Made by a program: the position numbers and the translations under genes
The notes under the pieces: model-generated
The model's database searches: none
Told to the model about the DNA's origin: nothing
The model's input: only the letters and a program-made list of their open reading frames with translations
Shown here: positions 15,076-52,705 of the stretch, piece after piece
How the letters are laid out: each line of letters opens with the position of its first letter
How positions within the stretch are numbered: the stretch's first letter is position 1
Source: Escherichia phage 121Q
Strand: one strand, 5' to 3'
Sequence record: NC_025447.1
DNA: 64,000 bases

Positions 15076-15244
15076 TATTGCTAAACTATTCAATATATAT
15101 TCTACTAGAATGATGCAAACAGACTCATATAGTACTGAATTCAAAGAGTTGAAAGTACTGATGTACTTGGGAACCCAATATCAGGAACAAGTTATTTTGG
15201 AATATATTAATTCGTTGAAGAAGGATATCCGTTATGTACGATGA
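15053..15244 (+). CDS. LGT-QE family small protein
   Basis: core LMYLGTQYQEQVILEYINSL. Confidence 0.6.
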   Translation: MKIIDQDDIAKLFNIYSTRMMQTDSYSTEFKELKVLMYLGTQYQEQVILEYINSLKKDIRYVR

Positions 15245-30730: not shown

Positions 30731-31027
30731 ATGGATACTAAATTCAAAATTATTTTTAAAACTAAGCCGTATATTCCACATACAGCAGAACGTTTTATAC
30801 CACATGGTGCTGAGGAAATTATTCACCAAGATGGTACTAAGTTATACCTTGTTCCTTGTTCTTATGAACGTGCAGTAGAAATGTTACTAATGAATGCTAG
30901 ACTATGCAAAAACAAGTACATTAGTTACCTATACAATGAACATATTTTAGATTTCAATGATGAAAATATGTTCATTCTAGCAATTGAGGATTTTGATAAC
31001 TGGTACAATATTATTAAAATCCAATGA
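30731..31027 (+). CDS. hypothetical small protein
   Basis: 98 aa; GGAGGA RBS. Confidence 0.5.
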   Translation: MDTKFKIIFKTKPYIPHTAERFIPHGAEEIIHQDGTKLYLVPCSYERAVEMLLMNARLCKNKYISYLYNEHILDFNDENMFILAIEDFDNWYNIIKIQ

Positions 31028-36253: not shown

Positions 36254-36529
36254 ATGAATTATAAAGTTCTACAATATACATACAGTGTTTTGTTTGATTT
36301 ACATCACAATGGAAGATATCTCAATACAATACGAGAAAACACATTCACTCATACTATCTGGATTAATCACTTAATAATGATACGTGAATATTTTGTTAAT
36401 AGTGAGATAATCATTCGTGGTAAAAAACATAAGATAGAACAAGTTAATAGTTTTGGTGGTAAATTAGTACTATCATTTATAGATAGTAATACTAATGAAA
36501 GATATAGTATAGATTTGGTGGACATATGA
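36254..36529 (+). CDS. TYK-LYDL family small protein (tandem array 1/7)
   Basis: N-terminus MNYKVLQYTYSVLFDL; ~90 aa like its six neighbours. Confidence 0.55.
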   Translation: MNYKVLQYTYSVLFDLHHNGRYLNTIRENTFTHTIWINHLIMIREYFVNSEIIIRGKKHKIEQVNSFGGKLVLSFIDSNTNERYSIDLVDI

Positions 36530-36792
36530 ATTATAAAGATTTCCTACTAACATACAAGATTATTCGAGATTTAGCACACGACAATGATAGCCCTAGTCTA
36601 GAAGACACATGCACTGAAATGATTCATACGATTCGTGGTAAGATTAAAAAAAAATTCAGTACTGTTATTATTGGTGATGACCATGCAGAATTTTCTGATA
36701 TAATCATTAGACGTGATGGTAAAGTTGAGGTTCAGTACTACACTGATTTTGGATTTACCAGTATTCCGTTGGAGATATTCCCTTGGGATTAA
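36526..36792 (+). CDS. TYK-LYDL family small protein (2/7)
   Basis: N-terminus MNYKDFLLTYKIIRDL. Confidence 0.55.
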   Translation: MNYKDFLLTYKIIRDLAHDNDSPSLEDTCTEMIHTIRGKIKKKFSTVIIGDDHAEFSDIIIRRDGKVEVQYYTDFGFTSIPLEIFPWD

Positions 36793-37094
36793 ATTTAAAT
36801 GATATACAATTCACTTATAAGATCCTATATGATTTGTATGATGTATACCTTGTTAGTAACAAAATAGGTTCACATAACCCATACAAAGAACAACCATTTA
36901 TTGATTTATATATTGAGTACTTAGATTCAGTAGGTGAATATATAAAAAAGAATTACAGTACTTTTATCGACGGAAATGATATATTCGAGTTCTCTGGAGT
37001 TAAATCATACAATGGGATTATCCATGTTGAATTTCTTGAAATAACCGATAGGGGATTTATCGAGATTAAAGTTGTGAAGTTGGTGAATTTATAA
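36783..37094 (+). CDS. TYK-LYDL family small protein (3/7)
   Basis: LNDIQFTYKILYDLYD. Confidence 0.55.
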   Translation: MGLNLNDIQFTYKILYDLYDVYLVSNKIGSHNPYKEQPFIDLYIEYLDSVGEYIKKNYSTFIDGNDIFEFSGVKSYNGIIHVEFLEITDRGFIEIKVVKLVNL

Positions 37095-37104
37095 GAGGTT
37101 ACAT

Positions 37105-37416
37105 ATGTTATTAAATGATATACAATTCACATACAAATTTTTGTATATCCAATACGCTACGGTTGATGCTGGAGAATATCTCTACGGTGAAATCTATCGT
37201 TCGGTATGGATAAAGTTTTTGGATGAATTACATGAATATTACCATGATTTGTGTATAGTTCGTGATAATAAAATATACAAATTCCGCGATATTGTTAGTC
37301 ATAGCGGTAAGCTACGATTGGAATTAAGTACTGATAGTGATGTTGATTGGATTGGTGTAAATTTACTGGAGTTGGAGAATGAAAAACAACTTAAAGGAAA
37401 TACAAGTATTTTATAA
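37105..37416 (+). CDS. TYK-LYDL family small protein (4/7)
   Basis: MLLNDIQFTYKFLYIQY. Confidence 0.55.
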   Translation: MLLNDIQFTYKFLYIQYATVDAGEYLYGEIYRSVWIKFLDELHEYYHDLCIVRDNKIYKFRDIVSHSGKLRLELSTDSDVDWIGVNLLELENEKQLKGNTSIL

Positions 37417-37663
37417 ATTCTTATACTTGTCATATGTAAAAGATGAGTACTATGAAAGTGTGTATTATTTTTTATGGCAACATTACCGTACTATAGTAAG
37501 AGATTTATATATAGGAAAATCTATCATATCCAATGGTGAAAAATGTATATGTACTGATGTTGTTAGTTTTAATGGTTCTTTAACACTGTGTTTCAGATGC
37601 GATAATAATAGTGGGTCATTTTCATTAAACGTATATCAGTTAGAAGGAATAAATTTTGAATAA
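37379..37663 (+). CDS. TYK-LYDL family small protein (5/7)
   Basis: LKEIQVFYKFLYLSY; DLYIGKSIIS motif. Confidence 0.55.
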   Translation: MKNNLKEIQVFYKFLYLSYVKDEYYESVYYFLWQHYRTIVRDLYIGKSIISNGEKCICTDVVSFNGSLTLCFRCDNNSGSFSLNVYQLEGINFE

Positions 37664-37856: not shown

Positions 37857-38112
37857 AGCTGAACTAATAGTTCATACATATAAAATGATATCAAGTACTG
37901 AGTTATCATATAGTGCAGATAATCCAGTACTGGATTATTTTGTTGAATTATTGAAAGAGCATTATATTGGTAAATCACTGATTCTTAATAATATTAATTT
38001 CACGGTAAAGGATGTAGCACCTGGAAAAAACGTACTAATAGTATGTGTTACTTCATCTGATAACCCAGTATACCCAATATCAATAATTTTTGAGATATTA
38101 GGAGATTTATGA
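37850..38112 (+). CDS. TYK-LYDL / KYxG-V family small protein (6/7)
   Basis: ATG at 37850 overlapping upstream stop; MTKAELIVHTYKMIS and EHYIGKSLIL. Confidence 0.5.
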
Positions 38113-38399
38113 ATATCATTTTAATGCAGAAAACATATGCTATATTGGTGAAAGATTATTCCATTACTTTCGATTCACAAGAAAGTGCTCTACATAACCT
38201 ATACAAAAACGTAACACAAGAATACAGAAATATGTTTTCTGACTTAGTAGTAGGAAGGTATTTCAGTACTAGAAAATACCCAAAACTTCAAATAGTTGAT
38301 GTTTCTTTTTATTTCAATGGTCATATTACTATTCATAGTTTAGACCAAGATTCAACAACGTACTTAAACTTTTCATTTGATGAGGTAACATTTTTATGA
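38109..38399 (+). CDS. TYK-LYDL family small protein (7/7)
   Basis: MNIILMQKTYAILVKDY. Confidence 0.5.
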   Translation: MNIILMQKTYAILVKDYSITFDSQESALHNLYKNVTQEYRNMFSDLVVGRYFSTRKYPKLQIVDVSFYFNGHITIHSLDQDSTTYLNFSFDEVTFL

Positions 38400-38572
38400 G
38401 AACAGTATTTTTTATCTGGAGTCTTTTTTCATTGGCAGTACTGACAGTATGTGGGATTTGTTTCCTTTCATCAATTAATACTTGGTATATCAATTTACTA
38501 TTTCCATTTGTCGGTGTTGGATTAGGATTTACTTTACATAGTGTATGTAAGGATTACAATGAGAACAAATGA
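38396..38572 (+). CDS. small hydrophobic (membrane) protein, 58 aa
   Basis: Below ORF-track cutoff; ATGA overlap start; translation MRTVFFIWSLFSLAVLTVCGICFLSS... is largely hydrophobic. Confidence 0.35.
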   Translation: MRTVFFIWSLFSLAVLTVCGICFLSSINTWYINLLFPFVGVGLGFTLHSVCKDYNENK

Positions 38573-38837
38573 AGTACTTGTTGCTGAAACAATGAAGATG
38601 ATTTACGATATCACGTCAGCACAGAATATGCCATATCCAACTAAGTCTTTATTGAGGACTGTGTATCTGGGGATAGTACAGGAGTACTACAAATCCAAGC
38701 ACAGAAGCATTATTAGTGTTTATCGTGATTATGAAAGGATTCGTATTTTATTCTGGAACAAGAATCGAGTACGTTCTGAATGTGATCTAGTAGATTTTAA
38801 ATTAGAGAATCTTTATTGCTATAAACAGGGACAATAG
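38559..38837 (+). CDS. hypothetical small protein
   Basis: ATG at 38559 (MRTNEVLV...) in frame with ORF 38541-38837. Confidence 0.45.
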   Translation: MRTNEVLVAETMKMIYDITSAQNMPYPTKSLLRTVYLGIVQEYYKSKHRSIISVYRDYERIRILFWNKNRVRSECDLVDFKLENLYCYKQGQ

Positions 38838-38895
38838 TCTAATTCATGATATAATAATGGGTAAGGAACAATAATTAACACAAGGAGTGTGTGAA

Positions 38896-39624
38896 ATGCT
38901 TGACCGTATCCGTTTCGCTACAGAGATGGCGAATGAATTAAACATGGCAAATTTCCAAATGTTAACATCAGTAATGGCTGAACATGCATGTGCTTATTCT
39001 GTAAGTGGTGTGCAGTGTGGTCAGGAGAATATGTTAGCAGATGTTTATAGTGAAGTACAAAGTAAGCAATATAGTGTAAAGACATATAAGGATAAGTTTG
39101 TTAGTCTTTATATGAACGAAGATATTGCCGAAGACCGCAAATTCACTGATTTTATTATTGAACGCCGAGTATCAGGTGTATCTAATCCTAATGCATCAAG
39201 CGATGAAGTTTTTGCAGAAGTACTGAAAGATATATACGAAAATGAATTAAAAAGTAAGAATCATTACAATGTACGTGAAACTAACACAGTGCTCTTGGGA
39301 TATGATGAAGACGAAGAATACTATTATTTTCGTATGACTGAAGTTCCTTTTGAATACAAATCTCCATATACAACTACAGTGAAAGAATTTACTGAAAAAA
39401 GTAAAAACTTTATGAAGCATGAAGGAAATCGTTGTAGTATAAATGGTTATGACGAAAATGGCATTCACATTTATGAATGGGTTCACCCAAATTGTCAGAC
39501 ATACACTCGTTGCTTGAAAAAACGTTATAATTTAGAAGAGCATGAATCATTCTATTTTAAAGTTAAGAAGCAAGGTTATACTCGCCCCGCCGATTCTGAA
39601 TTGATGGGTATGATATATTTCTAA
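38896..39624 (+). CDS. hypothetical protein
   Basis: AAGGAG 7 nt upstream of ATG at 38896; 242 aa. Confidence 0.55.
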   Translation: MLDRIRFATEMANELNMANFQMLTSVMAEHACAYSVSGVQCGQENMLADVYSEVQSKQYSVKTYKDKFVSLYMNEDIAEDRKFTDFIIERRVSGVSNPNASSDEVFAEVLKDIYENELKSKNHYNVRETNTVLLGYDEDEEYYYFRMTEVPFEYKSPYTTTVKEFTEKSKNFMKHEGNRCSINGYDENGIHIYEWVHPNCQTYTRCLKKRYNLEEHESFYFKVKKQGYTRPADSELMGMIYF

Positions 39625-39634
39625 GGAAACTGCT

Positions 39635-39916
39635 ATGGATTTTTATCTACACACATGGACATACGAACAATATATTACATTATATCTTGAAATTATTAAC
39701 ACAGAACCTAGGTGTGGTTGTTGGTTCGCAGATATCATAAAAGAGTATGCGGACGAATTTGAGTTCGTGTATCTTGGTACTGATATATTTGTAAAAAGTG
39801 TAGGTAAAACCGGACGAATCACTGATATAGATTACGACACTGTTAGTGTGAATTTCTATGTTGATTTTCCTGATGCTGGCGTTGATGGTGTATATTGTCT
39901 TTATGAAATAATTTAA
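39635..39916 (+). CDS. hypothetical small protein
   Basis: 93 aa ORF; minus-strand ORF 39680-39958 judged a shadow. Confidence 0.45.
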   Translation: MDFYLHTWTYEQYITLYLEIINTEPRCGCWFADIIKEYADEFEFVYLGTDIFVKSVGKTGRITDIDYDTVSVNFYVDFPDAGVDGVYCLYEII

Positions 39917-39923
39917 ATTTTTA

Positions 39924-39947
39924 GGCCAGCGTTTGCTGGTCTTTTTT
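39924..39947 (+). terminator. rho-independent terminator
   Basis: CCAGC-gttt-GCTGG hairpin followed by TCTTTTTT. Confidence 0.55.
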
Positions 39948-39960
39948 CGCAGGTACAAAG

Positions 39961-40263
39961 ATGTTCAGTATAGATTTAATTAACAGTACTATCAAAATGT
40001 TGGCAGATTTGGTGAGACAATCCAATGGAACTTTATATTCTGCAATGTATAAAATGTTTGACCGATATATCAAGGATTGTAACATATCATTATATGGACT
40101 TGCTGTTGATATAGACGATTACTATGGAATTAATACTTCATATAAAACAGGAATTTTAATTGGTATTAATATAAAGATGGGGTATCTCCCTTATTACTGT
40201 ATAGGATTACCAGATAATACTTTGGTAGAATATCCAGCCAGTACTATTAAATTAAGAGGATAA
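39961..40263 (+). CDS. hypothetical small protein
   Basis: 100 aa ORF after terminator. Confidence 0.45.
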   Translation: MFSIDLINSTIKMLADLVRQSNGTLYSAMYKMFDRYIKDCNISLYGLAVDIDDYYGINTSYKTGILIGINIKMGYLPYYCIGLPDNTLVEYPASTIKLRG

Positions 40264-40270
40264 AACTAAA

Positions 40271-40849
40271 ATGAATGTATTAGAATTAAGTACTAAGCTG
40301 ATTACTATGCGTAACGAGTGGTACGATTGGTTTTATAATGGTACTGATATGGATTTTTCAAAATATCCATTTATGGAATCAGGATGTGATGCAAGATACC
40401 GCTGGTTGAGCAAAGATTGTTCTGGTTTACATATTCTAGTTGACGATAGTGGTCAGGGAATTATAAAAGATTTACTTCAAGTTGAACAACTCGTCCATGA
40501 TAATTGGTGTGATAACGATCCATACCTTGGAAATATGATTTATGTAAGTGAAGATGATTGCATATTCGTTATCCAGCGTCATGGTAATTCTATGTTTTAT
40601 GTAGCAGACAGCAGTACTCCAGAAGGTGCAGCAGCCGATGGTCTTATGCCTAAGATTGATATATTGGAATTTGGATTACCTGAGCACTTCCAGATTAGTA
40701 CTTTATACGATATTCCACCACTTGAGTTCTTTGAAGAATTTAAATTGTACTACAATGATCTTCAAAAATTGAGTACTGAGAGTCGCCTTGAAATAACCGT
40801 CAAGTACATGGACGGAACGAAATTAACCGATACGGGGATAGAATTTTGA
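40271..40849 (+). CDS. FQxS-core family protein
   Basis: core LPEHFQISTLYD. Confidence 0.55.
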   Translation: MNVLELSTKLITMRNEWYDWFYNGTDMDFSKYPFMESGCDARYRWLSKDCSGLHILVDDSGQGIIKDLLQVEQLVHDNWCDNDPYLGNMIYVSEDDCIFVIQRHGNSMFYVADSSTPEGAAADGLMPKIDILEFGLPEHFQISTLYDIPPLEFFEEFKLYYNDLQKLSTESRLEITVKYMDGTKLTDTGIEF

Positions 40850-41535
40850 TTAAAGATTTAGATAGAATTTTATATGTACTAAGGGGTGTAATTACATTAC
40901 ATCCACAAATCAATCGAATTGAAAGTACATTTCAGTTGGAGTCAAGAGAAACTCCATATTCACATATATCAAATGTAGTTGGTTCACTCAGTACTGAAGA
41001 CTCGTCTTACGATATTTGTGTATGTGAAGTACAACCAAGTTCGGATCTTGGATTTGCTATTTTTGATAAAGAACAAAATCTCATTAGTATGTTTCAGTGC
41101 AATAATCCTTTTTGGAAAACATGCCTGTATCCAGAGTGGGCTATGCTTGATCCAACCAAGAGTACCATTAAAGTTTATGACTCTAAAAATGATGAAGTCG
41201 TTATTGATTTGGATGAGTCAATGTCAGAGGAAGAACACTTTCAGCTAATGATGATGCGTGCTATGCCTGAGTACAATGCAATGATTAACACTGTGCAATA
41301 CATTAAGGATACTATGCCATCATTGCGTACACATGAGTTTTGTCATCCTGTATTGTATGAACATTTGGATTTAGATTTCAGTACTATTAAATTCAAAGAT
41401 AGTATTATAAAATATATTCAAGAAAATGTTAAATTTAATTTCATTAGTACTATGAACAATAATCCAAAAACGAATTTTAGGCATCAGTACAATGAATCTT
41501 TTTCTAATGGTCGTGATACCAGTTGGTGGAAATAA
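40846..41535 (+). CDS. FQxS-core family protein
   Basis: core SEEEHFQLMMMRA. Confidence 0.55.
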   Translation: MIKDLDRILYVLRGVITLHPQINRIESTFQLESRETPYSHISNVVGSLSTEDSSYDICVCEVQPSSDLGFAIFDKEQNLISMFQCNNPFWKTCLYPEWAMLDPTKSTIKVYDSKNDEVVIDLDESMSEEEHFQLMMMRAMPEYNAMINTVQYIKDTMPSLRTHEFCHPVLYEHLDLDFSTIKFKDSIIKYIQENVKFNFISTMNNNPKTNFRHQYNESFSNGRDTSWWK

Positions 41536-41536
41536 T

Positions 41537-41800
41537 ATGAATATCCAAGATAGATTACAATTACTGTACACTATTGAACAGGCTGCTTTTGAACTTGTTC
41601 GAAAAATATCAGATGAACTACCTAAAGGAACTAAAGTTCGTGTACGTGAGATGAATTATTTTTCTGGAGTAATTGAAGAACAAGTACTAACAGTGAATAA
41701 AGTAACATACTATGAATCTGAGTTGTCTATTCAGTGTGAATCGGATGATGGATTAATATCATATTATGGAACTGATGTAGATATAGAGGTAATAAAATGA
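41537..41800 (+). CDS. KYxG-V family small protein
   Basis: ATG at 41537; ELPKGTKVRVRE motif. Confidence 0.45.
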   Translation: MNIQDRLQLLYTIEQAAFELVRKISDELPKGTKVRVREMNYFSGVIEEQVLTVNKVTYYESELSIQCESDDGLISYYGTDVDIEVIK

Positions 41801-42939
41801 CCCTTTTACAAATATATGAAGATTTAATGCACTTATGTAATACAAACGATGCGTTTTTTTATGTGGATCATAAAAGTCCTGCTGGTGGTACGTATCGTGT
41901 ATTCAGTTATCGTCTAGCATCATACACTGATTTCATGCAACCAAATGCGTTGGAAACCCGTGGCTCTATGTGGGAAATTGATGAAGAAGGTGACATGATA
42001 CGTTGTGCAGCACGTACAATGAAAAAGTTCTTCAATGCTTACGAGAATCCTGCTACAATGTTCCCTGCTAACACCACATGCGATGACATTGCGGTAGTTA
42101 TGCCTAAGTTGGATGGTTCGATCATCAGTACTTATCGTGATAATGATGGTGAGATTCGTTGTAAATCACATACTGCATTGTATTCTGACCATGCGATTAA
42201 CAGTACTCGACTTATTAACGAGAACCAGAATTTGTATCAGTACATCGACGAAGCGGAACGTTTAGGTTACACAGTTAATATGGAGTATACAAGCCCAGAG
42301 TACCGAATTGTATTACCATATCAGGTAGAACAACTGTTTGTACTGAACGTTCGACATCGTGTGAGTGGTGAGTTGCTATGTGGTAAAGCACTACGTGATA
42401 AGTTTCCATGCCTTGCACAGTACAGTACTAATATGACCGGAAAAGATATTCATCACACTTTTCCGGTACGAAATACCTTCCGTGAAAGCGTGGAGGAAGT
42501 TCATAAAATGCTTGATATTGAGGGTTTTGTGTGCATCCTAAATAATGGGACAATGTGTAAAATAAAGACTGACTGGTACAGTTCATTACATCTTACAAAA
42601 GATAGTATTATTATTGATTCTCATTTATATGAAGCCGTATTAAATGGTTCAAGTGATGATTTAAAACAATTGTTCAGTACTGATGAATATGCTATGCAAA
42701 AGATATTAAGAATGGAACAATTGGTATTTTCGTGCTATAATGCATTACAAGATGAAGTAGAAAGCTTCGTCAAGGAACACAAGCACTTGGAGCGAAAGGA
42801 ATTCGCAATGAAGGTTCAGGAGTGTTTAACTAATGAACTGAATCGTCAGGGCTTGGCCTTTGCAATGTATAACAATAAGAAAGTTGATTACAAAGAGACT
42901 CTTATAAAATACATGAAAATTGTACTAAAGGATTTTTAG
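41797..42939 (+). CDS. rnlA: RNA ligase 1 (T4 Rnl1-type tRNA repair ligase)
   Basis: N-terminal FFY.D....GGTYRVFSY..ASY, ALE.RG, KFFN..ENP and nucleotidyltransferase KxDGS motif (PKLDGS), all as in T4 Rnl1. Confidence 0.85.
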   Translation: MTLLQIYEDLMHLCNTNDAFFYVDHKSPAGGTYRVFSYRLASYTDFMQPNALETRGSMWEIDEEGDMIRCAARTMKKFFNAYENPATMFPANTTCDDIAVVMPKLDGSIISTYRDNDGEIRCKSHTALYSDHAINSTRLINENQNLYQYIDEAERLGYTVNMEYTSPEYRIVLPYQVEQLFVLNVRHRVSGELLCGKALRDKFPCLAQYSTNMTGKDIHHTFPVRNTFRESVEEVHKMLDIEGFVCILNNGTMCKIKTDWYSSLHLTKDSIIIDSHLYEAVLNGSSDDLKQLFSTDEYAMQKILRMEQLVFSCYNALQDEVESFVKEHKHLERKEFAMKVQECLTNELNRQGLAFAMYNNKKVDYKETLIKYMKIVLKDF

Positions 42940-42966
42940 TACTATCTAGCCTAAGCACAAGGAGAA

Positions 42967-43224
42967 GTGATGGCTAAACCTAAGTATAAAAATGACGGTT
43001 CCCTTTCTCCGACTGAGTTCAGGAAAATACAAGAAGAAATCGATGAATTACAGCACAAACGCTCAATGAAAGGTGTGAAGATAAGTAAGAAACGAATCGA
43101 GAATACCTTCGGATGTAGTAGTACTGAATACAAGAAGAAAAGGAAACCAAAAGGTGTTAAGCCGAGAATACATGATGTAACTCGCTATACATCGAAACGT
43201 GAAAATAAATTTGATCCACTATAA
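42967..43224 (+). CDS. small highly basic protein
   Basis: 85 aa rich in K/R (KKKRKPKGVKPR); minus-strand ORF 42951-43133 judged a shadow. Confidence 0.45.
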   Translation: MMAKPKYKNDGSLSPTEFRKIQEEIDELQHKRSMKGVKISKKRIENTFGCSSTEYKKKRKPKGVKPRIHDVTRYTSKRENKFDPL

Positions 43225-43233
43225 GGAGTTCAT

Positions 43234-43464
43234 ATGAAAGTTGAAGTTCAGCATAGTATTGTTCAGGATATGTCAGTAGTTAAATTTCTTTCTCTGAAAG
43301 ATTACTTCAGATGTATCAAGTTCCTAGAAGAATCTCAATTACAGTGGACCCCATTAAAGTACAGTTCATCCAATGATACAGCTAGTATTCGTTGTGATGA
43401 ATCTGTACTTGTGAAAATCTCCAAACGATTTGGAGTAGGAAAAGTTAATGAGCACAGTAAGTGA
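43234..43464 (+). CDS. hypothetical small protein
   Basis: 76 aa ORF; GGAG RBS. Confidence 0.45.
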   Translation: MKVEVQHSIVQDMSVVKFLSLKDYFRCIKFLEESQLQWTPLKYSSSNDTASIRCDESVLVKISKRFGVGKVNEHSK

Positions 43465-43702
43465 CCTAAAATACTACAACAAAACTGCGGATACGTTTAT
43501 TACTCATTTATATGAAGAATTTAGTCGTATCCGTAAGGAATATACAGGTAAATGTATTTTATATAGTTCTTATCATAGTGGTGGAATTGAAAGTGCTTAC
43601 ATTACTAAAGTGAAGTTTTCTGATGACTATCAATTACTCTTTGAATTAGATGATTGTTTCGTTATTGAAGCTTGTTTGATAGTGGATGTTCTAGATAATT
43701 GA
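43448..43702 (+). CDS. hypothetical small protein
   Basis: 84 aa ORF. Confidence 0.4.
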   Translation: MSTVSDLKYYNKTADTFITHLYEEFSRIRKEYTGKCILYSSYHSGGIESAYITKVKFSDDYQLLFELDDCFVIEACLIVDVLDN

Positions 43703-43708
43703 GGACAT

Positions 43709-44023
43709 ATGAATAAAGAACTTGCATTTGAGAGGATCGAAAAGTTAAAGTACATTGAAAAGGAACTAATAGAATCTGTCGAATCAATGGTCGAAGATTA
43801 CGTTTTCGATTTTAAGAAAACATTGATTGGATGTAAAGTTAAATGCTGGGATCATACAATCAGAGAATGGTTCAGTACTATAATTCTTGATGTTAAAGTA
43901 TCGCGTACTGCTATTGGTAATTTAGTAAATGGTGAATGCTTTGTATACACTGAATACAATAACGGAACAAGAAACCTTTCAAGAGGATGGCACAAACTCG
44001 AAGATGTAGAATTCATTGAGTAA
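43709..44023 (+). CDS. KYxG-V family small protein
   Basis: KKTLIGCKVKCWD motif. Confidence 0.45.
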   Translation: MNKELAFERIEKLKYIEKELIESVESMVEDYVFDFKKTLIGCKVKCWDHTIREWFSTIILDVKVSRTAIGNLVNGECFVYTEYNNGTRNLSRGWHKLEDVEFIE

Positions 44024-44035
44024 CAAGGAGTAATA

Positions 44036-44968
44036 ATGCCAACTATTACACTGACAGTTGGATTACCTGGGTGTGGCAAAACCACATGGGCAGTTCAAGA
44101 AATTAAAAATGCCAAATCGAAGACTATCAACATTAACCGTGATGACATTCGAGAATCAATGGCAGGGTCACATGATGCATACAAATTCAACGACGCTAAT
44201 GAGCAGTACGTAACTAAAATGCAGTTCAGTGCAGCAAATTCAGCAGCAGAGAATGGTTGGAACATCATTGTGTCCGATACGAACCTTAAACAACATTTCC
44301 GTGATGAATGGAAACGTTGGGCTAAAGATAATGAATACGACTACAAAGAAAAGAACTTCTACGAAGATTTCGTACCTAATGAAGATCGTGGTGCAGATGT
44401 TCATGTTTTCTTTAAGATTAAAGAGTTCGTAAAACTTTGTAAGAAACGTAACCTCATGCGTGAGCGTTCAGTACAAGATAATATCATCGACACTATGGCA
44501 GATACGTACTATTATAGTAAGGCCATGCACATTGGTTACTATGGTAATTCACGAGAAGCTGCTGTTATCGTTGATATTGACGGTACTCTTGCTCATAAAT
44601 GGGGTCGCAATCCTTACGATGAAAGTACTGTTCTTCAGGATACACCAGATGAAGAAGTTATTTTGTCTATTATCGCTGAAGCAGTTTTTCATAAACGCAA
44701 GATTATCGTCATGAGTGGGCGTACTGAAGGGTGTCGTGCTGATACCGAACAGTGGCTTAAGAATTGGGGTATTCCTTACGATGCATTGTTTATGCGAGAC
44801 ATAGATGATAAACGTCCCGATGATGTTGTAAAATTCGACCTGTACATGAAAAATGTGGTTGATCATTACGATGTTAAAAAGGTTTATGATGACCGCGATC
44901 AAGTTGTATTCATGTGGCGTAAGCTACTTGGCTTGAAAGTAATGCAAGTTGCAGAAGGAAATTTCTAA
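44036..44968 (+). CDS. pseT: polynucleotide 5'-kinase / 3'-phosphatase
   Basis: N-terminal Walker A GLPGCGKTTW plus NINRDD; C-terminal HAD phosphatase motif VIVDIDGTLA and DDRDQVV; T4 Pnk-like. Confidence 0.85.
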   Translation: MPTITLTVGLPGCGKTTWAVQEIKNAKSKTININRDDIRESMAGSHDAYKFNDANEQYVTKMQFSAANSAAENGWNIIVSDTNLKQHFRDEWKRWAKDNEYDYKEKNFYEDFVPNEDRGADVHVFFKIKEFVKLCKKRNLMRERSVQDNIIDTMADTYYYSKAMHIGYYGNSREAAVIVDIDGTLAHKWGRNPYDESTVLQDTPDEEVILSIIAEAVFHKRKIIVMSGRTEGCRADTEQWLKNWGIPYDALFMRDIDDKRPDDVVKFDLYMKNVVDHYDVKKVYDDRDQVVFMWRKLLGLKVMQVAEGNF

Positions 44969-44972
44969 TACA

Positions 44973-44999
44973 AAAGGGATCATATGTTGGTCCCTTTTT
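44973..44999 (+). terminator. rho-independent terminator (weak stem)
   Basis: AGGGA...TCCCT hairpin followed by TTTTTC. Confidence 0.45.
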
Positions 45000-45017
45000 C
45001 TTTTAAGGTATATTATA

Positions 45018-45194
45018 ATGAATGTAAAAACACAGATGTTGTTACAAAAAGAATACTTAGAAAATATAGAAATGTTCTATAGATTGTCTTTATACGAAAA
45101 TAAAGATAAAAAATATAACTTTTCTAAACAACTAAACACAAGTACTAATGATTATCTATTTTCATCAATGTTTTATGTGAGAGGTTTATTATAA
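45018..45194 (+). CDS. hypothetical small protein
   Basis: Internal ATG at 45018 of ORF 44949-45194, downstream of terminator; weak RBS. Confidence 0.3.
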   Translation: MNVKTQMLLQKEYLENIEMFYRLSLYENKDKKYNFSKQLNTSTNDYLFSSMFYVRGLL

Positions 45195-45454
45195 TGGATA
45201 AATTTCACACAGATATAACACAGATAGGTAATCTTATCAATAGTCTAATTACTGATTTAGAAGAAAAGTATTTAGGTCGAAATGTATACGTAGAAATGTA
45301 TGAAACATATGGTGTTATTGATATGATTTATTACAGTGCATTGAAGTGTGAAATACGTTTAACAGTATGTTTGTTTGAAAAAAATACATTCAACAGAAGT
45401 ACTGCAATTCGCCAAGTTGGAGTTGATGATATAGAATTATACGAGGAACAATGA
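45194..45454 (+). CDS. KYxG-V family small protein
   Basis: LEEKYLGRNVYVEMYETYG. Confidence 0.5.
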   Translation: MDKFHTDITQIGNLINSLITDLEEKYLGRNVYVEMYETYGVIDMIYYSALKCEIRLTVCLFEKNTFNRSTAIRQVGVDDIELYEEQ

Positions 45455-45705
45455 TGTTTGAGCAAGACTTAGAGATATTCAAAAGTCATATTGATTACTT
45501 GACTATATTAGAAAATGATTTAACTACAAAGTACAAAGGTATTCGTGTTCTGTGCTGGTATGATGATTGGGATTATAAACGTGAACTCACTATTGATCGA
45601 ATTTATTTCAGTGACGGTGTACTAAATGTACATGGTGTAAATGATTTTGGTCATTCATATACATATTCTAATAATGCTAAATTTAAAAGGATCTACAATG
45701 AATGA
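45451..45705 (+). CDS. KYxG-V family small protein
   Basis: LTTKYKGIRVLCWYD. Confidence 0.5.
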   Translation: MMFEQDLEIFKSHIDYLTILENDLTTKYKGIRVLCWYDDWDYKRELTIDRIYFSDGVLNVHGVNDFGHSYTYSNNAKFKRIYNE

Positions 45706-46000
45706 ATATTATCATAATTTATTCGATTACATAAAACTAATAGATGATCTTTCTTTCGAATTTCTTAGTACTGAAAAAGTTCTTGAACCTCTCTATTATG
45801 ATTGTATTAGTTCACTATCTTTAGATGAAAAAGAGATATTATCAAATAATTTACCGTCAACCGTCTGTGTAATCAATGGTTCCAAGGCTGTGGTGTCTGA
45901 GGTTAATTTTCATAAATCACTTAATACAATTGTTTACAAGTTCGATAACACTTGGATCAATCATGTAACCAGTAATATTAAATCTGTGAGATTTTTATGA
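45698..46000 (+). CDS. hypothetical small protein
   Basis: ATG at 45698 (MNEYYHN...) overlapping upstream stop. Confidence 0.45.
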   Translation: MNEYYHNLFDYIKLIDDLSFEFLSTEKVLEPLYYDCISSLSLDEKEILSNNLPSTVCVINGSKAVVSEVNFHKSLNTIVYKFDNTWINHVTSNIKSVRFL

Positions 46001-46293
46001 ATATAAAAAAATTATTTGAACAAGTAAATTTATTGTACTGGTGTTCAGACGGTTCAGATAAGGAATATAGTGAAGTTTATTTAGAACTGTTTAGAACTGA
46101 AATTCATTATATTCGAAGATACTTAATTGATAACAAAACTAAAGTACAAGTAAGATACCATAATGGTACTTTAAAGGATGGTATAATTATTGGATTGATA
46201 GTTGCACGATGGTCTAGTAATATTAAAGTTGCAGTAAGATTAATGACTGATGATGGTGTCTACACAATAGAAGCTAGTGAGATTATATATTAA
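45997..46293 (+). CDS. KYxG-V family small protein
   Basis: ATGA overlap start; DNKTKVQVRYHNG. Confidence 0.45.
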   Translation: MNIKKLFEQVNLLYWCSDGSDKEYSEVYLELFRTEIHYIRRYLIDNKTKVQVRYHNGTLKDGIIIGLIVARWSSNIKVAVRLMTDDGVYTIEASEIIY

Positions 46294-46599
46294 ATGGATA
46301 TACAAACATTCAATAAGCTAAAGTACTATGATAATGGTTTTGCATTAATAATTAACGAACTTGATGGGATACCATACGAATATCATAATCAATTAATGAA
46401 GATAGTAAAATGTATATGTGAAGAATTAAAAAGTATGTTTAAAAATGAATATGTTTATGATTTAGGTAATAGTAGCAAAAAACTATACATAAAAAAATTC
46501 TGGGGAACGCATTGTGGTTTAATGGTCGATTTAGGTTTAAGTTTAGACGATAATTCTGAATCATGTTCATTATATATAGATGAAATGCGAATATCATGA
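46294..46599 (+). CDS. hypothetical small protein
   Basis: 101 aa ORF starting immediately after upstream stop. Confidence 0.45.
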   Translation: MDIQTFNKLKYYDNGFALIINELDGIPYEYHNQLMKIVKCICEELKSMFKNEYVYDLGNSSKKLYIKKFWGTHCGLMVDLGLSLDDNSESCSLYIDEMRIS

Positions 46600-46656
46600 G
46601 ACGTATCAGAATTCGGTGATATAATTTGATTACATCACCAATGTGGAGAAGTTGAA

Positions 46657-46983
46657 GTGAATGGTTCGTTTTTAACAATTTTAGAAAAGACATCCGAGAT
46701 GCTTTCTAGTTCGTTAATGCACATTTTCAGTACTAATAATTTATACAATACCCAGGTGTTAGATTCAATTAGTAATAACTATGTGGTAAGTATATCTGAT
46801 GAAATATGTCCATTTAATGCGTATACGAATTATAGTGTAGAAGAGTTTCATATATCCGAGATTCGATGTGGTTTTGGTGCTTGGTTAGTTCTAAATGAAC
46901 GTTCAGGGACGTCTTTATACATCGAAGAAATTGATAAATTTATATACAAAGGAGTAGAATATGTTAACCCCAATCATTCTTAG
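46657..46983 (+). CDS. hypothetical protein
   Basis: 108 aa ORF downstream of GTGATATAAT -10 element near 46614; start codon uncertain. Confidence 0.4.
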   Translation: MNGSFLTILEKTSEMLSSSLMHIFSTNNLYNTQVLDSISNNYVVSISDEICPFNAYTNYSVEEFHISEIRCGFGAWLVLNERSGTSLYIEEIDKFIYKGVEYVNPNHS

Positions 46984-47590
46984 CAGTGCATATGTAATCG
47001 GTATTATTATTTCTGGTATGCTTGCATATAACTATAACAGAAGTGTTATAGGTTATGTAGTACTTGGTACAGTACTAAGTCCAGTGATTGCTATTGGTCT
47101 TCTTGTTATGCTAGGTGAGAAAAATACAAACTTCTTTATTACTAAAGAACTTGATAAAATCACCCCAGCACCAGAAACAGTTATTCCAGAAGTTAAAGAA
47201 GAAGTTAAAGAAGTTGAAGTGCAAATGCAAGTTAAAGTGTATAATACACTTGAAGAAACTGACCCTAAAGTTGTAGTGAATGTAGTTCCAGTCGTTGAAG
47301 ATGTGAAACCAAAAGCTCCTAAAGCACAGAAAAATACTAAAACTGCAAAGAAAGCTCGTTACACTAAAGGTAAGAACAAAGGTAAATCTAAGGATGAACC
47401 ACAACTAGGTGTTCATGACCATACTGCACAAATTGCAACGGCAGCGACCGCAGCAGCAATCGTAACATCACCAATCTACAACAATGATGATTACAGTGAT
47501 TATAGCCGTCACAGCAGTTCTTCCTCTGATTCTTGTTCCTATGATAGCTCTAGTTCTGATTCAAGTTCATCTTCTGGAAGTTGTGATTAA
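46961..47590 (+). CDS. membrane protein with Ser-rich low-complexity C-terminus
   Basis: AAAGGAG RBS; two hydrophobic segments near N-terminus; C-terminal SSSSSDSCSYDSSSSDSSSSSGSCD. Confidence 0.55.
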   Translation: MLTPIILSSAYVIGIIISGMLAYNYNRSVIGYVVLGTVLSPVIAIGLLVMLGEKNTNFFITKELDKITPAPETVIPEVKEEVKEVEVQMQVKVYNTLEETDPKVVVNVVPVVEDVKPKAPKAQKNTKTAKKARYTKGKNKGKSKDEPQLGVHDHTAQIATAATAAAIVTSPIYNNDDYSDYSRHSSSSSDSCSYDSSSSDSSSSSGSCD

Positions 47591-47919
47591 TGTCAATGAA
47601 ACCACTAATTCAACATAATATTTTTTATAGGTCATTATTCAAAATTCAAGATGATTTTTATCAGACGTTGAGTAATGATCTTATAGGTAAAACTGTACGA
47701 TATTCGGAACAATACATCAAACGTATGACAAGTCAGTATATTGACCCTGAATACGAATACGACATTGAACACATTAATCCCAATACTAGAATGAAAATCA
47801 TTGAGATATTTAAGAATGGGAGAACTATAGGTGCTGAAATTGAGTACTTGAATTGTGATTGTTACATAGATACAGAGTTGAGTTTGGATTATCTTGTTTT
47901 AGTGGATGATGAGGAATAA
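47590..47919 (+). CDS. KYxG-V family small protein
   Basis: NDLIGKTVRYSEQY. Confidence 0.5.
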   Translation: MSMKPLIQHNIFYRSLFKIQDDFYQTLSNDLIGKTVRYSEQYIKRMTSQYIDPEYEYDIEHINPNTRMKIIEIFKNGRTIGAEIEYLNCDCYIDTELSLDYLVLVDDEE

Positions 47920-47921
47920 TT

Positions 47922-48137
47922 ATGATAACATTTTTCGCAATATATGGATTTGTAGCATTTGTTACATTTATAACCAACTTTCTAGTACTTAATTGGGGTT
48001 GTTTTAAAGATGAAATCATGATTATCATGAATCTCCAAACAGCAGCACTGATGGCTATTATTTGGCCTGTAACGTTAGTATATATTTTTATTTCACTTAC
48101 CCAAGATATTATTAACAAATATAAGAGAAAGAAATAA
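47922..48137 (+). CDS. small membrane protein
   Basis: 71 aa with two hydrophobic stretches; C-terminal KYKRKK. Confidence 0.5.
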   Translation: MITFFAIYGFVAFVTFITNFLVLNWGCFKDEIMIIMNLQTAALMAIIWPVTLVYIFISLTQDIINKYKRKK

Positions 48138-48388
48138 TGTTCAACAACGACTTATCACATTTGCGATATCTTATGTCTTTGGCTGATGATTTTATAAATG
48201 ATCTGAAGCCAAAATATATTGGTCAAGAAGTACGATTAATAAACTCCAGAGGGTATGGAAAATATATTATTACTGATATGTATATTAGTGGTGGTGAATG
48301 GCGTTTTAAAATTAATACTTATCTTAAAGATGGTTCTTTTGCTGGAACACAAGTTACTAAACACACTAATATTATATGGTTGGAGTAA
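48137..48388 (+). CDS. KYxG-V family small protein
   Basis: LKPKYIGQEVRLIN. Confidence 0.5.
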   Translation: MFNNDLSHLRYLMSLADDFINDLKPKYIGQEVRLINSRGYGKYIITDMYISGGEWRFKINTYLKDGSFAGTQVTKHTNIIWLE

Positions 48389-48390
48389 TA

Positions 48391-49134
48391 ATGAAACATT
48401 TCTTAGAAGTAACCGTACCTGATGATAAAGATTTATACATTGTAGGTGATTTGCATGGTAATGGTAAACTATGGGATGCTACAGTGAAAGAATTTGGTAT
48501 TACACACAATGATTATGTTTTCAGTGTAGGTGATATTATCGACCGTGGAGAACAAAATTCAAAGCTCCTTTTTGAATTTTTGTTCGGAGAAAATCGTTAC
48601 ATGATTGCAGGTAATCATGAGATGATGTGCGTTGATTCGGAAACACTTCGAGATTGGTATCATTGTTGGATAAGTAATGGTGGTGATAAATTCCTTGATG
48701 AAGTTGGAGGAACAGGCATTCAATTCTTTCGTCAGTACTTAAAAGATCTCCCTATGATTATCCAAATCAATCACCGAGGCTTGAAGATTGGGTTAGTTCA
48801 TGCTGGAGTTCCGTTGGAATATACAACATGGGAACGATTTGTTAATGGGACAAAATCACTTAGTGCTGATATAATTGATAAGTGCTTGTGGGATAGGAAA
48901 ACATTCGATTATTGTAGAACGAATAATACCTATTATGCACCTAAGTTAGATGGAGTGCATTGTGTCTTTAGTGGACATACAGCAGTTACTGATCCACTCA
49001 TTTATGGTAATCGCATTTGGATTGATAGTCAGTTCTTGACGGGTGACTTAACTCTCGCTACTCCACAAAGTGGTGGGATGAGATACTTACGTAAAGAAAA
49101 AGATGAATACTCATTCAATCGTTTCAAAAGGTAA
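48391..49134 (+). CDS. Ser/Thr protein phosphatase (PPP family, lambda-phosphatase-like)
   Basis: GDLHGN, GDIIDRGEQN and AGNHE metallophosphatase motifs; GGAG RBS 5 nt upstream. Confidence 0.8.
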   Translation: MKHFLEVTVPDDKDLYIVGDLHGNGKLWDATVKEFGITHNDYVFSVGDIIDRGEQNSKLLFEFLFGENRYMIAGNHEMMCVDSETLRDWYHCWISNGGDKFLDEVGGTGIQFFRQYLKDLPMIIQINHRGLKIGLVHAGVPLEYTTWERFVNGTKSLSADIIDKCLWDRKTFDYCRTNNTYYAPKLDGVHCVFSGHTAVTDPLIYGNRIWIDSQFLTGDLTLATPQSGGMRYLRKEKDEYSFNRFKR

Positions 49135-49139
49135 TAATT

Positions 49140-49409
49140 ATGCATGATGTAGTTAAAAAATATTTGAATGATAGATATATTATGAAAAAATCTATTAATT
49201 CTATCCTAAAAGATCATGCTAATCAAATACGTGAGATTCTATCAAATAAACTTATTGGTTGTTCAGTTGAGTTCAATTACAAAAAGAATGTAGTGAAGAT
49301 TGGAGTTATTAAACGTGTAGTTGCTGTTTATGACCAAAATGTATATGTTGAAATTGAATATGATGGTAAATTATCACAATTAAGTACTGAAGATTTAACA
49401 TTTTTATAA
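49140..49409 (+). CDS. KYxG-V family small protein
   Basis: SNKLIGCSVEFNY. Confidence 0.5.
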   Translation: MHDVVKKYLNDRYIMKKSINSILKDHANQIREILSNKLIGCSVEFNYKKNVVKIGVIKRVVAVYDQNVYVEIEYDGKLSQLSTEDLTFL

Positions 49410-49419
49410 GGAAATAGAA

Positions 49420-49647
49420 ATGAAAGTAATTCAAGTTATGGTAGAAAAATACCAAACTGAAGATGGTCGTATTTTTGATTCAGCTAAACAAGCTGAACAC
49501 CATGAACGTATTATTTCGGGTGCACGTAAAGTGTGTCCTACATGTAGTGGAACACAACAAGTACCGTCAGAAGATTACCGCAGCTTTTATGCTTGTCCAC
49601 ACTGTGATGGGAAAGGCTATGTAGAAAAACAAGAGGTATGGAAATGA
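49420..49647 (+). CDS. small zinc-finger protein (DnaJ-type CxxCxGxG)
   Basis: CPTCSGTQ and CPHCDGKG motifs. Confidence 0.55.
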   Translation: MKVIQVMVEKYQTEDGRIFDSAKQAEHHERIISGARKVCPTCSGTQQVPSEDYRSFYACPHCDGKGYVEKQEVWK

Positions 49648-50057
49648 AATTGTATTGCTTAACTAATATGTACTGTCAAGGTGTCCAAGCTGGTATTCAA
49701 GCATTCCATGCTGGTGTTAAACTAATTAAAGAATATGAAGGTACTGCTTTCAGTACTATTATTGATGAATGGTACTATGAACACGAAACTATTGTAGTTC
49801 TAAATGCTGGTGGACATGATAAATTAAATTCTTATTATAACAACCTTAGCAAACAGGGGAAAGTTCCGTTTGCCAAGTTCAATGAAGCTGGATTGAATGA
49901 TGCTATTACCTGTGTAGCAGTACTGTGTACGTCTGAAATGATTGAAGACATGGCTGTTATGCGTATGAATCTTCCTGCTGGTGATCAACTAATGCAAGTA
50001 AAATATGGTGCATTGTTTGACACACTAAAAGCAATCAGTACAATGAGGACTATTTGA
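49638..50057 (+). CDS. hypothetical protein
   Basis: 139 aa ORF. Confidence 0.5.
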   Translation: MEMKLYCLTNMYCQGVQAGIQAFHAGVKLIKEYEGTAFSTIIDEWYYEHETIVVLNAGGHDKLNSYYNNLSKQGKVPFAKFNEAGLNDAITCVAVLCTSEMIEDMAVMRMNLPAGDQLMQVKYGALFDTLKAISTMRTI

Positions 50058-52686: not shown

Positions 52687-52705
52687 TCATTTATTGGAGG
52701 TAATT

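What the first reader, a model, noticed from the sequence alone, without database searches (positions are those of the whole stretch)
41797..44968. T4-type tRNA repair pair (Rnl1 and Pnk) separated by four small ORFs
RNA ligase 1 (41797-42939) and polynucleotide kinase/phosphatase (44036-44968) are the two enzymes T4 uses to reseal tRNA cleaved by host anticodon nucleases such as PrrC. Their presence implies the phage expects an RNA-targeting abortive-infection defence. The intervening genes (a highly basic 85-aa protein and three small ORFs) are uncharacterised and sit where accessory counter-defence genes could reside.
Basis: established knowledge. Interest (0 to 1): 0.4.

Follow-up and report, generated by a model that had tools for sequence, protein, structure and literature searches.

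The report
T4-type RNA repair genes, jumbo phage
The window comes from a giant E. coli phage and does encode the RNA ligase and kinase-phosphatase pair that phage T4 uses to mend cut tRNAs; this pair is already annotated and published for these phages, so the only new point is that two of the four small genes between them are conserved across the whole phage group.

Summary
The window is an Asteriusvirus jumbo coliphage, 98.7% identical to vB_Eco_slurp01. ORF 41797-42939 is a T4 RnlA-family RNA ligase 1. It passes NCBIfam TIGR02308 (293 bits against a cutoff of 242), matches PDB 2c5u at 1.5e-56, and has the Rnl1 C-terminal domain. ORF 44036-44968 is a T4-type polynucleotide kinase/3'-phosphatase (PDB 1ltq at 3.7e-38). 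The catalytic Lys (K104-LDG), the Walker A motif (GLPGCGKT) and DIDGT are all intact. The one deviation is T4 Lys119 of ligase motif Ia, which is His125 here.

The gene pair is already annotated in GenBank for these phages and was called RNA repair in the RaK2 and CBB papers, so it is ordinary.

What I add concerns the four intervening ORFs, which are not equivalent.
- ORF-A (basic, 84 aa) lies directly after Rnl1 in all 17 architectures examined, including a Xanthomonas phage.
- ORF-B (76 aa) is more conserved than either enzyme and overlaps the Pnk start in most lineages.
- ORF3 and ORF4 form a swappable cassette that is absent, single or double among near-identical phages.

Neither A nor B resembles any known protein. 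T4 also has unrelated genes between rnlA and pseT, so a role for A or B in RNA repair remains only a hypothesis.

The parts
41797..42939 (+). Rnl1: T4 RnlA-family ATP-dependent RNA ligase 1 (380 aa), with adenylyltransferase domain and Rnl1-specific C-terminal domain
   Evidence: Conserved K104 (KLDG), R55, K77, F79, E163, E242-G243 and K255/K257. The motif Ia position equivalent to T4 K119 is H125. 100% identical to the PBECO4 protein.
42970..43224 (+). ORF-A: conserved basic 84-aa protein (pI 10.1), directly downstream of Rnl1 in every relative examined; function unknown
   Evidence: phrog_15306. Found in 60 phage records and 67 protein clusters. Sits immediately after Rnl1 in all 17 architectures examined. 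AF2 model shows one long helix (15-46) plus a short helix, pLDDT 80. No Pfam, NCBIfam or fold match.
43234..43464 (+). ORF-B: conserved 76-aa protein with a beta-beta-alpha-beta-beta-alpha fold; function unknown
43448..43702 (+). ORF3: 84-aa acidic ORF, lineage-specific, part of a variable cassette
   Evidence: No PHROG, Pfam or NCBIfam hit. Present in only 11 Asteriusvirus records. Absent from PBECO4-type and Salmonella SD-type phages.
43709..44023 (+). ORF4: 104-aa ORF, variable cassette gene
   Evidence: phrog_31355. 11 records at >=88% identity and 19 at 34-38% identity. 34% identical to the single ORF that PBECO4 carries in this slot. DNA identity breaks sharply at the end of ORF-B and resumes at the Pnk ATG. 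Weakly related to 41492-41800, 47590-47919 and 48137-48388.
44036..44968 (+). Pnk: T4-type bifunctional polynucleotide 5'-kinase / 3'-phosphatase (310 aa)
   Evidence: Conserved K15, T16, D36, R39 and the KRNxxR motif (R138, R142) in the kinase. Conserved D180, D182, T184, R191, R229, D262, K266 and D285-D286 in the phosphatase. About 21 extra residues in the kinase domain relative to T4.
44972..44998 (+). Terminator-like hairpin followed by a T run, 4 nt after the Pnk stop codon
   Evidence: 11-pair stem. A terminator is annotated at the same place in G17 and in Munch.
41492..41800 (+). 102-aa ORF overlapping the Rnl1 start (ATGA), a weak paralog of ORF4; context only
   Evidence: phrog_28139. 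Iterated profile search. Homologous to the RaK2 gene immediately upstream of its rnlA.

Best explanation
This is the RNA break repair block of an Asteriusvirus jumbo coliphage. By homology with T4, Pnk would heal the 2',3'-cyclic-phosphate and 5'-OH ends left by anticodon nucleases, producing 3'-OH and 5'-phosphate ends. Rnl1 would then reseal the tRNA anticodon loop, which restores translation during infection of hosts that cut their own tRNAs. The genes are tightly packed on one strand, with Shine-Dalgarno sequences before A, B and Pnk, no internal terminator, and a terminator hairpin right after Pnk. Rnl1, the four small ORFs and Pnk are therefore probably co-transcribed. The block Rnl1 - ORF-A - ORF-B - Pnk is inherited across all RaK2-like jumbo phages. 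ORF3 and ORF4 occupy a slot between ORF-B and Pnk that is empty, single or double in otherwise near-identical phages, so they are dispensable add-ons. What is shown: enzyme identity, intact catalytic residues, gene order and its conservation. What is inferred: tRNA as the substrate, the counter-defence role, co-transcription, and any role of ORF-A or ORF-B. My working guess, at about 0.3, is that ORF-A is a nucleic-acid- or Rnl1-binding helper and that ORF-B is a partner co-translated with Pnk.
For: Enzyme identity and catalytic residues. Rnl1-specific C-terminal domain (PF20819, residues 268-379); this domain gives T4 Rnl1 its tRNA anticodon-loop specificity according to PMC6379707. Gene spacing and ribosome binding sites. 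Terminator. The same block is present in slurp01/G17, PBECO4, SD-2_S15, RaK2, GAP32, Munch, XaC1 and ten metagenomic contigs, while most flanking genes are not shared with Munch or XaC1. ORF-B is more conserved than the enzymes and ORF-A about as conserved, except the short RaK2 form. ORF-B overlaps the Pnk start by 13-44 nt in most lineages. Cassette polymorphism of ORF3 and ORF4. The literature already treats these enzymes as RNA repair proteins in RaK2 (PMC3622015), CBB (PMC5259590) and jumbo phages in general (PMC7824862).
Against: There is no functional data for this phage group, and no host anticodon nuclease or trigger was identified. Ligase motif Ia has His125 where T4 has Lys119, which I recall as essential in T4 but could not verify in the held literature. 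T4 has rnlA and pseT in the same order on the same strand, with five unrelated genes between them, including alc and an Rz1-annotated gene. Linkage therefore does not prove shared function. Synteny in compact relatives extends further, as 243 aa - Rnl1 - A - C - Pnk - 210 aa - Metallophos - 350 aa - DNA ligase. ORF-A and ORF-B may simply be conserved backbone genes. ORF-B is missing in three compact relatives (L011, L015, L017). The promoter scan shows no excess over shuffled sequence.
Confidence: 0.75

Rival explanations
1. The enzymes are as described, but the small ORFs A and B have nothing to do with RNA repair. On this view they are conserved early genes of the RaK2-like clade that stay in place because the whole backbone is syntenic.
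For: In T4 the genes between rnlA and pseT include alc, an Rz1-annotated lipoprotein gene and three others, and none is homologous to A or B. Backbone synteny extends beyond the block in compact relatives and in RaK2 and GAP32; the 245-aa upstream protein, Metallophos and DNA ligase are shared. ORF-B is absent from L011, L015 and L017 while Rnl1 and Pnk remain. No domain or fold links A or B to nucleic-acid chemistry.
Against: A is immediately downstream of Rnl1 in 17 of 17 architectures, even where the flanking genes differ. B overlaps the Pnk start codon in most lineages, which suggests coupled translation. B is more conserved than the enzymes. Small ORFs elsewhere in this region turn over rapidly.
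Confidence: 0.55
2. The pair serves mainly functions other than defence. Rnl1 would act as a tail-fibre attachment factor, as T4 gp63 does, and Pnk as a general DNA/RNA end-processing enzyme working with the nearby DNA ligase and phosphoesterases.
For: The PHROG family name is 'RNA ligase and tail fiber protein attachment catalyst'. An ATP-dependent DNA ligase, two Metallophos phosphoesterases and a PTH2-like hydrolase lie 3-8 kb downstream. T4 Pnkp acts on DNA ends as well (my own knowledge).
Against: All ligase catalytic residues and the tRNA-specificity C-terminal domain are under purifying selection across genera, which would not be needed for a non-catalytic assembly role. Kinase and phosphatase sites are both intact. 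Tight linkage of the two genes fits a joint pathway.
Confidence: 0.12
3. ORF3 and ORF4, rather than A and B, are the counter-defence accessory genes. The slot between ORF-B and Pnk would then be a hotspot where alternative anti-defence or host-range cassettes are exchanged.
For: Three allelic states occur among phages whose flanks are 96-99% identical: empty in SD-2_S15, one ORF in PBECO4, and two ORFs here. The breakpoints are sharp at gene borders. The two ORF4 alleles are only 34% identical. RaK2 and L007 carry other small ORFs in the same slot.
Against: No homology to any known anti-defence protein. Small-ORF turnover is seen throughout this genome region, so the slot may not be special. 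ORF4 belongs to a weak paralog family scattered nearby.
Confidence: 0.15

Closest known systems
Phage T4 rnlA (gp63, Rnl1) and pseT (Pnkp) tRNA restriction-repair pathway against PrrC
   Same: Both enzymes are full-length homologs with the same domain architecture: about 36% (Rnl1) and about 35% (Pnk) identity to a T4-type rnlA and to T4 Pnkp (1ltq). The catalytic residues are conserved. The gene order is the same (rnlA upstream of pseT on one strand) with several small genes between them.
   Different: The intervening genes are unrelated. T4 has alc, an Rz1-annotated gene and three others; this locus has ORF-A, ORF-B and a variable cassette. Ligase motif Ia is Ser-His instead of Ser-Lys. The kinase domain has an insertion of about 21 aa. 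The host nuclease is unknown.
RaK2-like jumbo phage RNA repair genes (RaK2 gp464/gp470, CBB_83, GAP32_080/084, PBECO4, G17_00487/00482)
   Same: These are direct orthologs, 42-100% identical, already annotated as RNA ligase and polynucleotide kinase and described as RNA repair proteins.
   Different: Nothing differs for the enzymes. The conservation of ORF-A and ORF-B (and of ORF-C in other genera), and the cassette polymorphism, are not mentioned in the papers I could read.
Bacterial multi-protein RNA repair complexes (Pnkp-Hen1; Pnkp1-Rnl-Hen1 heterohexamer, PMC4411300)
   Same: A kinase-phosphatase and a ligase encoded together with extra partner proteins. The Pnkp1 structure 4xrp matches the window Pnk at 5e-32.
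   Different: No Hen1 methyltransferase is present here. ORF-A and ORF-B are tiny, have no known domains, and no complex has been shown. The ligase is Rnl1-type with the T4 C-terminal domain.

Membership tests
T4 RnlA / Rnl1 RNA ligase family | Passes curated family models | tested here: met
   NCBIfam TIGR02308 (equivalog) 292.6 bits against a cutoff of 242.25. Pfam PF09511 58.8 bits against 28.3.
T4 RnlA / Rnl1 RNA ligase family | Motif I KxDG with the lysine that is adenylylated (T4 K99) | tested here: met
   K104-L-D-G107, conserved in six jumbo-phage orthologs.
T4 RnlA / Rnl1 RNA ligase family | N-subdomain ATP contacts (T4 R54, K75, F77), motif IV (E227, G228) and motif V (K240, K242) | tested here: met
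   R55, K77, F79, E242, G243, K255 and K257. The roles of R54 and K75 are given in PMC6379707.
T4 RnlA / Rnl1 RNA ligase family | Motif Ia basic residue (T4 S118-K119) | tested here: not met
   The window has S124-H125. His is also found in RaK2, GAP32 and Munch, and Lys in XaC1. K123, two residues upstream, aligns with T4 K117. The consequence is unknown, and the His is itself conserved.
T4 RnlA / Rnl1 RNA ligase family | Rnl1-specific all-helical C-terminal domain that confers tRNA specificity | tested here: met
   Pfam PF20819 T4_Rnl1_C, E=6.6e-17, residues 268-379. Alignment to T4 residues 251-374.
T4 RnlA / Rnl1 RNA ligase family | Seals 3'-OH/5'-phosphate breaks in the tRNA anticodon loop | not testable with these tools
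   Requires biochemistry.
T4 Pnkp (polynucleotide 5'-kinase / 3'-phosphatase) | N-terminal P-loop kinase: Walker A GxxGxGK[ST], D35, R38, R126 | tested here: met
   G9-LPGCG-K15-T16, D36 and R39. KRNLMR (R138, R142) matches T4 KRNSKR (R122, R126) after a one-residue register shift.
T4 Pnkp (polynucleotide 5'-kinase / 3'-phosphatase) | C-terminal DxDxT acylphosphatase: D165, D167, T169, R176, R213, D254, K258, D277, D278 | tested here: met
   D180, D182, T184, R191, R229, D262, K266, D285 and D286. Pfam PF25109 HAD_PNKP 148.5 bits against 27.6.
T4 Pnkp (polynucleotide 5'-kinase / 3'-phosphatase) | Homotetrameric quaternary structure | not testable with these tools
   No multimer prediction is available.
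T4-type tRNA restriction-repair counter-defence system | Both healing and sealing enzymes encoded by the same phage | tested here: met
   The two genes lie 1.1 kb apart on one strand.
T4-type tRNA restriction-repair counter-defence system | Genes required for growth on hosts carrying an anticodon nuclease (prr-type restriction) | not testable with these tools
   Requires phage genetics.
T4-type tRNA restriction-repair counter-defence system | A phage trigger of the nuclease (T4 Stp) or an identified host nuclease target | not tested
   I had no verified Stp or PrrC sequence to search with.

The most novel reading that the evidence does not exclude
RaK2-like jumbo phages would run an expanded RNA repair module. 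In it the orphan proteins ORF-A (basic helical, always next to Rnl1), ORF-B (small alpha/beta domain, translationally coupled to Pnk) and, in other genera, ORF-C would be dedicated subunits or specificity factors. They might hold cleaved tRNA halves, bridge Pnk and Rnl1, or block the host nuclease. This would be a phage counterpart of the bacterial multi-subunit Pnkp-Rnl-Hen1 complexes.
Probability: 0.25. Interest if true: 0.55.

Novelty: already known. Interest (0 to 1): 0.25.

Why it matters
tRNA-cutting defences are now known to be common, including PrrC, PARIS, retron effectors, Schlafens, Cas13a and Cas12a3. Phage RNA repair is one of only two known answers to them; the other is phage-encoded tRNAs. 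The enzyme pair here adds nothing new. If the two clade-wide small proteins do take part in repair, they would be the first accessory factors of the phage Rnl1/Pnk pathway. They could explain how repair copes with nucleases other than PrrC.

Tried and rejected
- **Homology of A, B, ORF3 and ORF4 to the T4 genes between rnlA and pseT.** None was found with profile or phmmer searches; all E-values were above 0.07.
- **Remote homologs of ORF-B.** A word-indexed search found only 30 close relatives. A full HMMER profile search of 1.84e9 representatives found only 3 true clusters plus spurious hits in long repetitive proteins.
- **ORF-A as a helix-turn-helix.** I suspected this from the motif 'GV.KS.KRI.NTFGVSST.YKK'. 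AF2 instead gives one continuous helix, with no Pfam hit and no PDB fold hit, so I dropped the idea.
- **ORF-A as a ribosomal S21-like protein.** There is no Pfam support.
- **Non-coding RNA in the locus.** There are no tRNAs in the window and no Rfam hit in 38000-50000 at E<=0.1.
- **Promoters.** The sigma-70 scan found no more sites than in shuffled sequence.
- **ORF-C in the window.** No member lies in the locus; the best window hit is 30731-31027 at E=0.002.
- **Literature on T4 Lys119 and on Burroughs and Aravind 2016.** The papers are not held.
Full report
**What the window is.** A 3.9-kb stretch around the finding is 98.7% identical to Escherichia phage vB_Eco_slurp01. It is 96-98% identical to G17, CRJP21, Sharanji and other Asteriusvirus jumbo coliphages of about 350 kb. 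In total 34 phage records match. Of 143 gene-sized ORFs in the window, 140 are on the + strand. GC content is about 0.33 throughout. No tRNA gene lies in the window.

**Check of the observation.**
- ORF 41797-42939 (380 aa) matches Pfam RNA_lig_T4_1 and T4_Rnl1_C and phrog_562 at 3e-109.
- It also matches the NCBIfam equivalog model for T4 RnlA ligases, above its curated cutoff (292.6 against 242.25 bits), and the solved T4 Rnl1 structures (2c5u, 1.5e-56).
- ORF 44036-44968 (310 aa) matches AAA_33 plus HAD_PNKP (1.9e-43) and phrog_505 at 1e-96.
- It also matches T4 Pnkp 1ltq over its full length (3.7e-38).
- The first small ORF is strongly basic (pI 10.1, 24 Lys+Arg in 85 residues).
- Its likely start is the ATG at 42970, behind an AAGGAG, as annotated in relatives. 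The GTG at 42967 is less likely.

**Catalytic residues.** I aligned the window proteins with T4 and five orthologs from other genera.
- In the ligase, motif I is K104-L-D-G.
- The ligase equivalents of T4 R54, K75, F77, E159, E227, G228, K240 and K242 are all present.
- The one deviation is in motif Ia. T4 has S118-K119, whereas the window, RaK2, GAP32 and Munch have Ser-His. Only the Xanthomonas phage XaC1 keeps Lys.
- In the related fungal ligase this lysine contacts the ATP gamma-phosphate and probably the RNA 5'-phosphate (PMC6379707).
- The His is itself conserved and a Lys sits two residues upstream, so I read this as a variant and not a loss. This is untested.
- In Pnk, the Walker A motif is GLPGCGKT. 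D36, R39 and the KRNxxR arginines are kept in the kinase.
- In the Pnk phosphatase, D180-I-D182-G-T184, R191, R229, D262, K266 and D285-D286 are all conserved.

**The four intervening ORFs are of two kinds.** I compared the locus with slurp01/G17, PBECO4, Salmonella phage SD-2_S15, RaK2 (Alcyoneusvirus), GAP32 (Mimasvirus), Munch and Xanthomonas phage XaC1. I also compared it with ten metagenomic contigs.
- ORF-A (42970-43224) lies directly downstream of Rnl1 in all 17 architectures.
- ORF-B (43234-43464) is present in all but three compact relatives.
- Percent identity to the window protein:

| Protein | RaK2 | GAP32 | Munch | XaC1 |
|---|---|---|---|---|
| ORF-B | 66 | 70 | 73 | 60 |
| Rnl1 | 64 | 58 | 59 | 49 |
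| Pnk | 63 | 57 | 54 | 42 |

- ORF-B is thus more conserved than either enzyme.
- In SD-2_S15, GAP32, Munch, XaC1, L008, L010 and L016, ORF-B overlaps the Pnk start by 13-44 nt. That arrangement suggests coupled translation.
- Most flanking genes are not shared with Munch or XaC1.
- A third family of about 75 aa, ORF-C, sits between A and B, or between A and Pnk, in the non-Asteriusvirus genera. It is absent from the window's locus.

**ORF3 and ORF4 are a variable cassette.**
- ORF3 occurs in only 11 Asteriusvirus records.
- ORF4 occurs in those 11 records at 88% identity or more, and as an allele 34-38% identical in 19 others.
- Against PBECO4, DNA identity is about 97% up to the last codons of ORF-B. 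It then collapses and resumes exactly at the Pnk ATG.
- SD-2_S15 has nothing in this slot.
- The slot therefore has three states (empty, single, double) among near-identical phages.

**What ORF-A and ORF-B are.** Neither has a Pfam or NCBIfam match, and their only PHROG matches are families of unknown function.
- ORF-B has only 30 clusters among 5.8 billion proteins.
- A full profile search of 1.84 billion representatives found only three real clusters for ORF-B. All are from this phage clade.
- The AlphaFold model of ORF-B (pLDDT 83) has a beta-beta-alpha-beta-beta-alpha topology.
- ORF-B has many invariant polar residues: H7, S8, Q11, D12, Y43, S44, S45, S51, R53 and E56.
- ORF-A has 67 clusters. 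Its model is one long helix (15-46) plus a short helix and a basic tail (pLDDT 80). It has no structural neighbours.

**Operon structure.** Gaps between the genes are 0-31 nt, or the genes overlap. AAGGAG sites precede A, B and Pnk. A terminator-like hairpin at 44972-44998 follows the Pnk stop, and a terminator is annotated at the same place in G17 and Munch. Another hairpin lies at 39923-39942. The sigma-70 scan finds no more sites than in shuffled sequence. No Rfam family matches 38000-50000.

**A caution from T4.** In a T4-type genome the order is rnlA, alc, a 117-aa gene, an Rz1-annotated 99-aa gene, a 76-aa gene, a 106-aa gene and then pseT, all on one strand. Close linkage of the two repair genes with small genes between them is therefore also the T4 arrangement. 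From my own knowledge, the T4 genes in between have jobs unrelated to RNA repair: Alc is a transcription terminator, and pseT.3 and pseT.2 are spanins. None is homologous to A, B, ORF3 or ORF4. In compact metagenomic relatives the conserved order also extends outward, as 243 aa - Rnl1 - A - C - Pnk - 210 aa - Metallophos - 350 aa - DNA ligase. The same landmarks occur in the window at 38887-39624, 48376-49134 and 51268-52686. ORF-A and ORF-B may therefore simply be backbone genes.

**Comparison with what is known.** The enzymes are members of the T4 Rnl1 and Pnkp families by every sequence-level criterion tested except the motif Ia lysine. They are orthologs of genes already annotated in PBECO4, G17, RaK2 and GAP32. 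They were described as RNA repair proteins in the RaK2 paper (PMC3622015), and the ligase was in the CBB paper (PMC5259590). Jumbo-phage RNA repair in general is reviewed in PMC7824862. The finding is therefore correct but already known. The conservation of A and B, the ORF-C family and the cassette polymorphism were not mentioned in the papers I could read. They are modest additions that generate a hypothesis.

**Verdict.** The counter-defence role is a sound inference but is untested. Novelty is low and I score interest at 0.25. The most novel reading still open is that A, B and C are accessory subunits of an expanded phage RNA repair module. I give that a probability of about 0.25.

Noticed in passing
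window 771-23629: A 32-member paralog family of proteins of about 75-210 aa fills most of the first 24 kb of the window (phmmer all-against-all, E<1e-3). Two smaller families also exist: six members at 104-2194 and 14857-15244, and five tandem members at 36254-37663.
   Followed up: no
window 48376-49134, 49638-50057, 50054-51256, 51268-52686, 52634-53497: Downstream of Pnk there is a NinI/lambda-phosphatase-like Metallophos enzyme, a PTH2-like peptidyl-tRNA hydrolase (Pfam 25.2 bits against a cutoff of 23), a conserved 400-aa protein of unknown function, an ATP-dependent DNA ligase and a second Metallophos enzyme. The neighbourhood thus has a nucleic-acid end-processing and translation-rescue flavour. 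Lambda phosphatase has 2',3'-cyclic phosphodiesterase activity according to the title of PMC2190708, so the first Metallophos enzyme could contribute to end healing.
   Followed up: partly
window 38887-39624: A 245-aa protein of unknown function (phrog_16105) is conserved upstream of Rnl1 in RaK2, GAP32, L008 and L016. It is directly adjacent to Rnl1 in the compact relatives L011 and L015. It may belong to the same conserved backbone or module.
   Followed up: partly
window 41492-41800, 43709-44023, 47590-47919, 48137-48388: These four ORFs form a weak paralog family of 83-109 aa proteins, with an N-terminal helix followed by an 'L.GK.V(R/K)' motif and a beta-rich part. The added members scored E of about 6e-4 at the iteration in which they joined. 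Three of the four lie immediately upstream of an enzyme gene (Rnl1, Pnk, Metallophos). This may be coincidence in a region dense with small ORFs.
   Followed up: partly
window 42169-42171 (Rnl1 residue H125): Ligase motif Ia reads Ser-His instead of the Ser-Lys of T4. His is conserved in Asteriusvirus, RaK2, GAP32 and Munch, and Lys is retained in XaC1.
   Followed up: partly
window about 44342-44410 (Pnk residues about 103-125): The kinase domain has an insertion of about 21 residues relative to T4 Pnkp (YKEKNFYEDFVPNEDRGADVH).
   Followed up: no
L008 1-913 and L016 1-558 (GAP32-like metagenomic contigs): A gene with the Gad2 (anti-Gabija) Pfam domain PF26128 lies three to four genes upstream of Rnl1 in GAP32-like relatives. 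I did not find a counterpart among the large ORFs I scanned in the window.
   Followed up: no
window 54364-55059, 60175-60927, 62165-63604: The window also encodes a ClpP-like protease, a SIR2-family protein and a PIN-PhoH fusion protein.
   Followed up: no
L003 4233-4457, L005 4260-4487, L006 4294-4518 and eight metagenomic loci: A third conserved small-protein family (ORF-C, about 75 aa) lies between ORF-A and ORF-B, or between ORF-A and Pnk, in the GAP32-, Munch- and XaC1-type relatives examined and in eight metagenomic loci. It is missing from Asteriusvirus and RaK2.
   Followed up: partly
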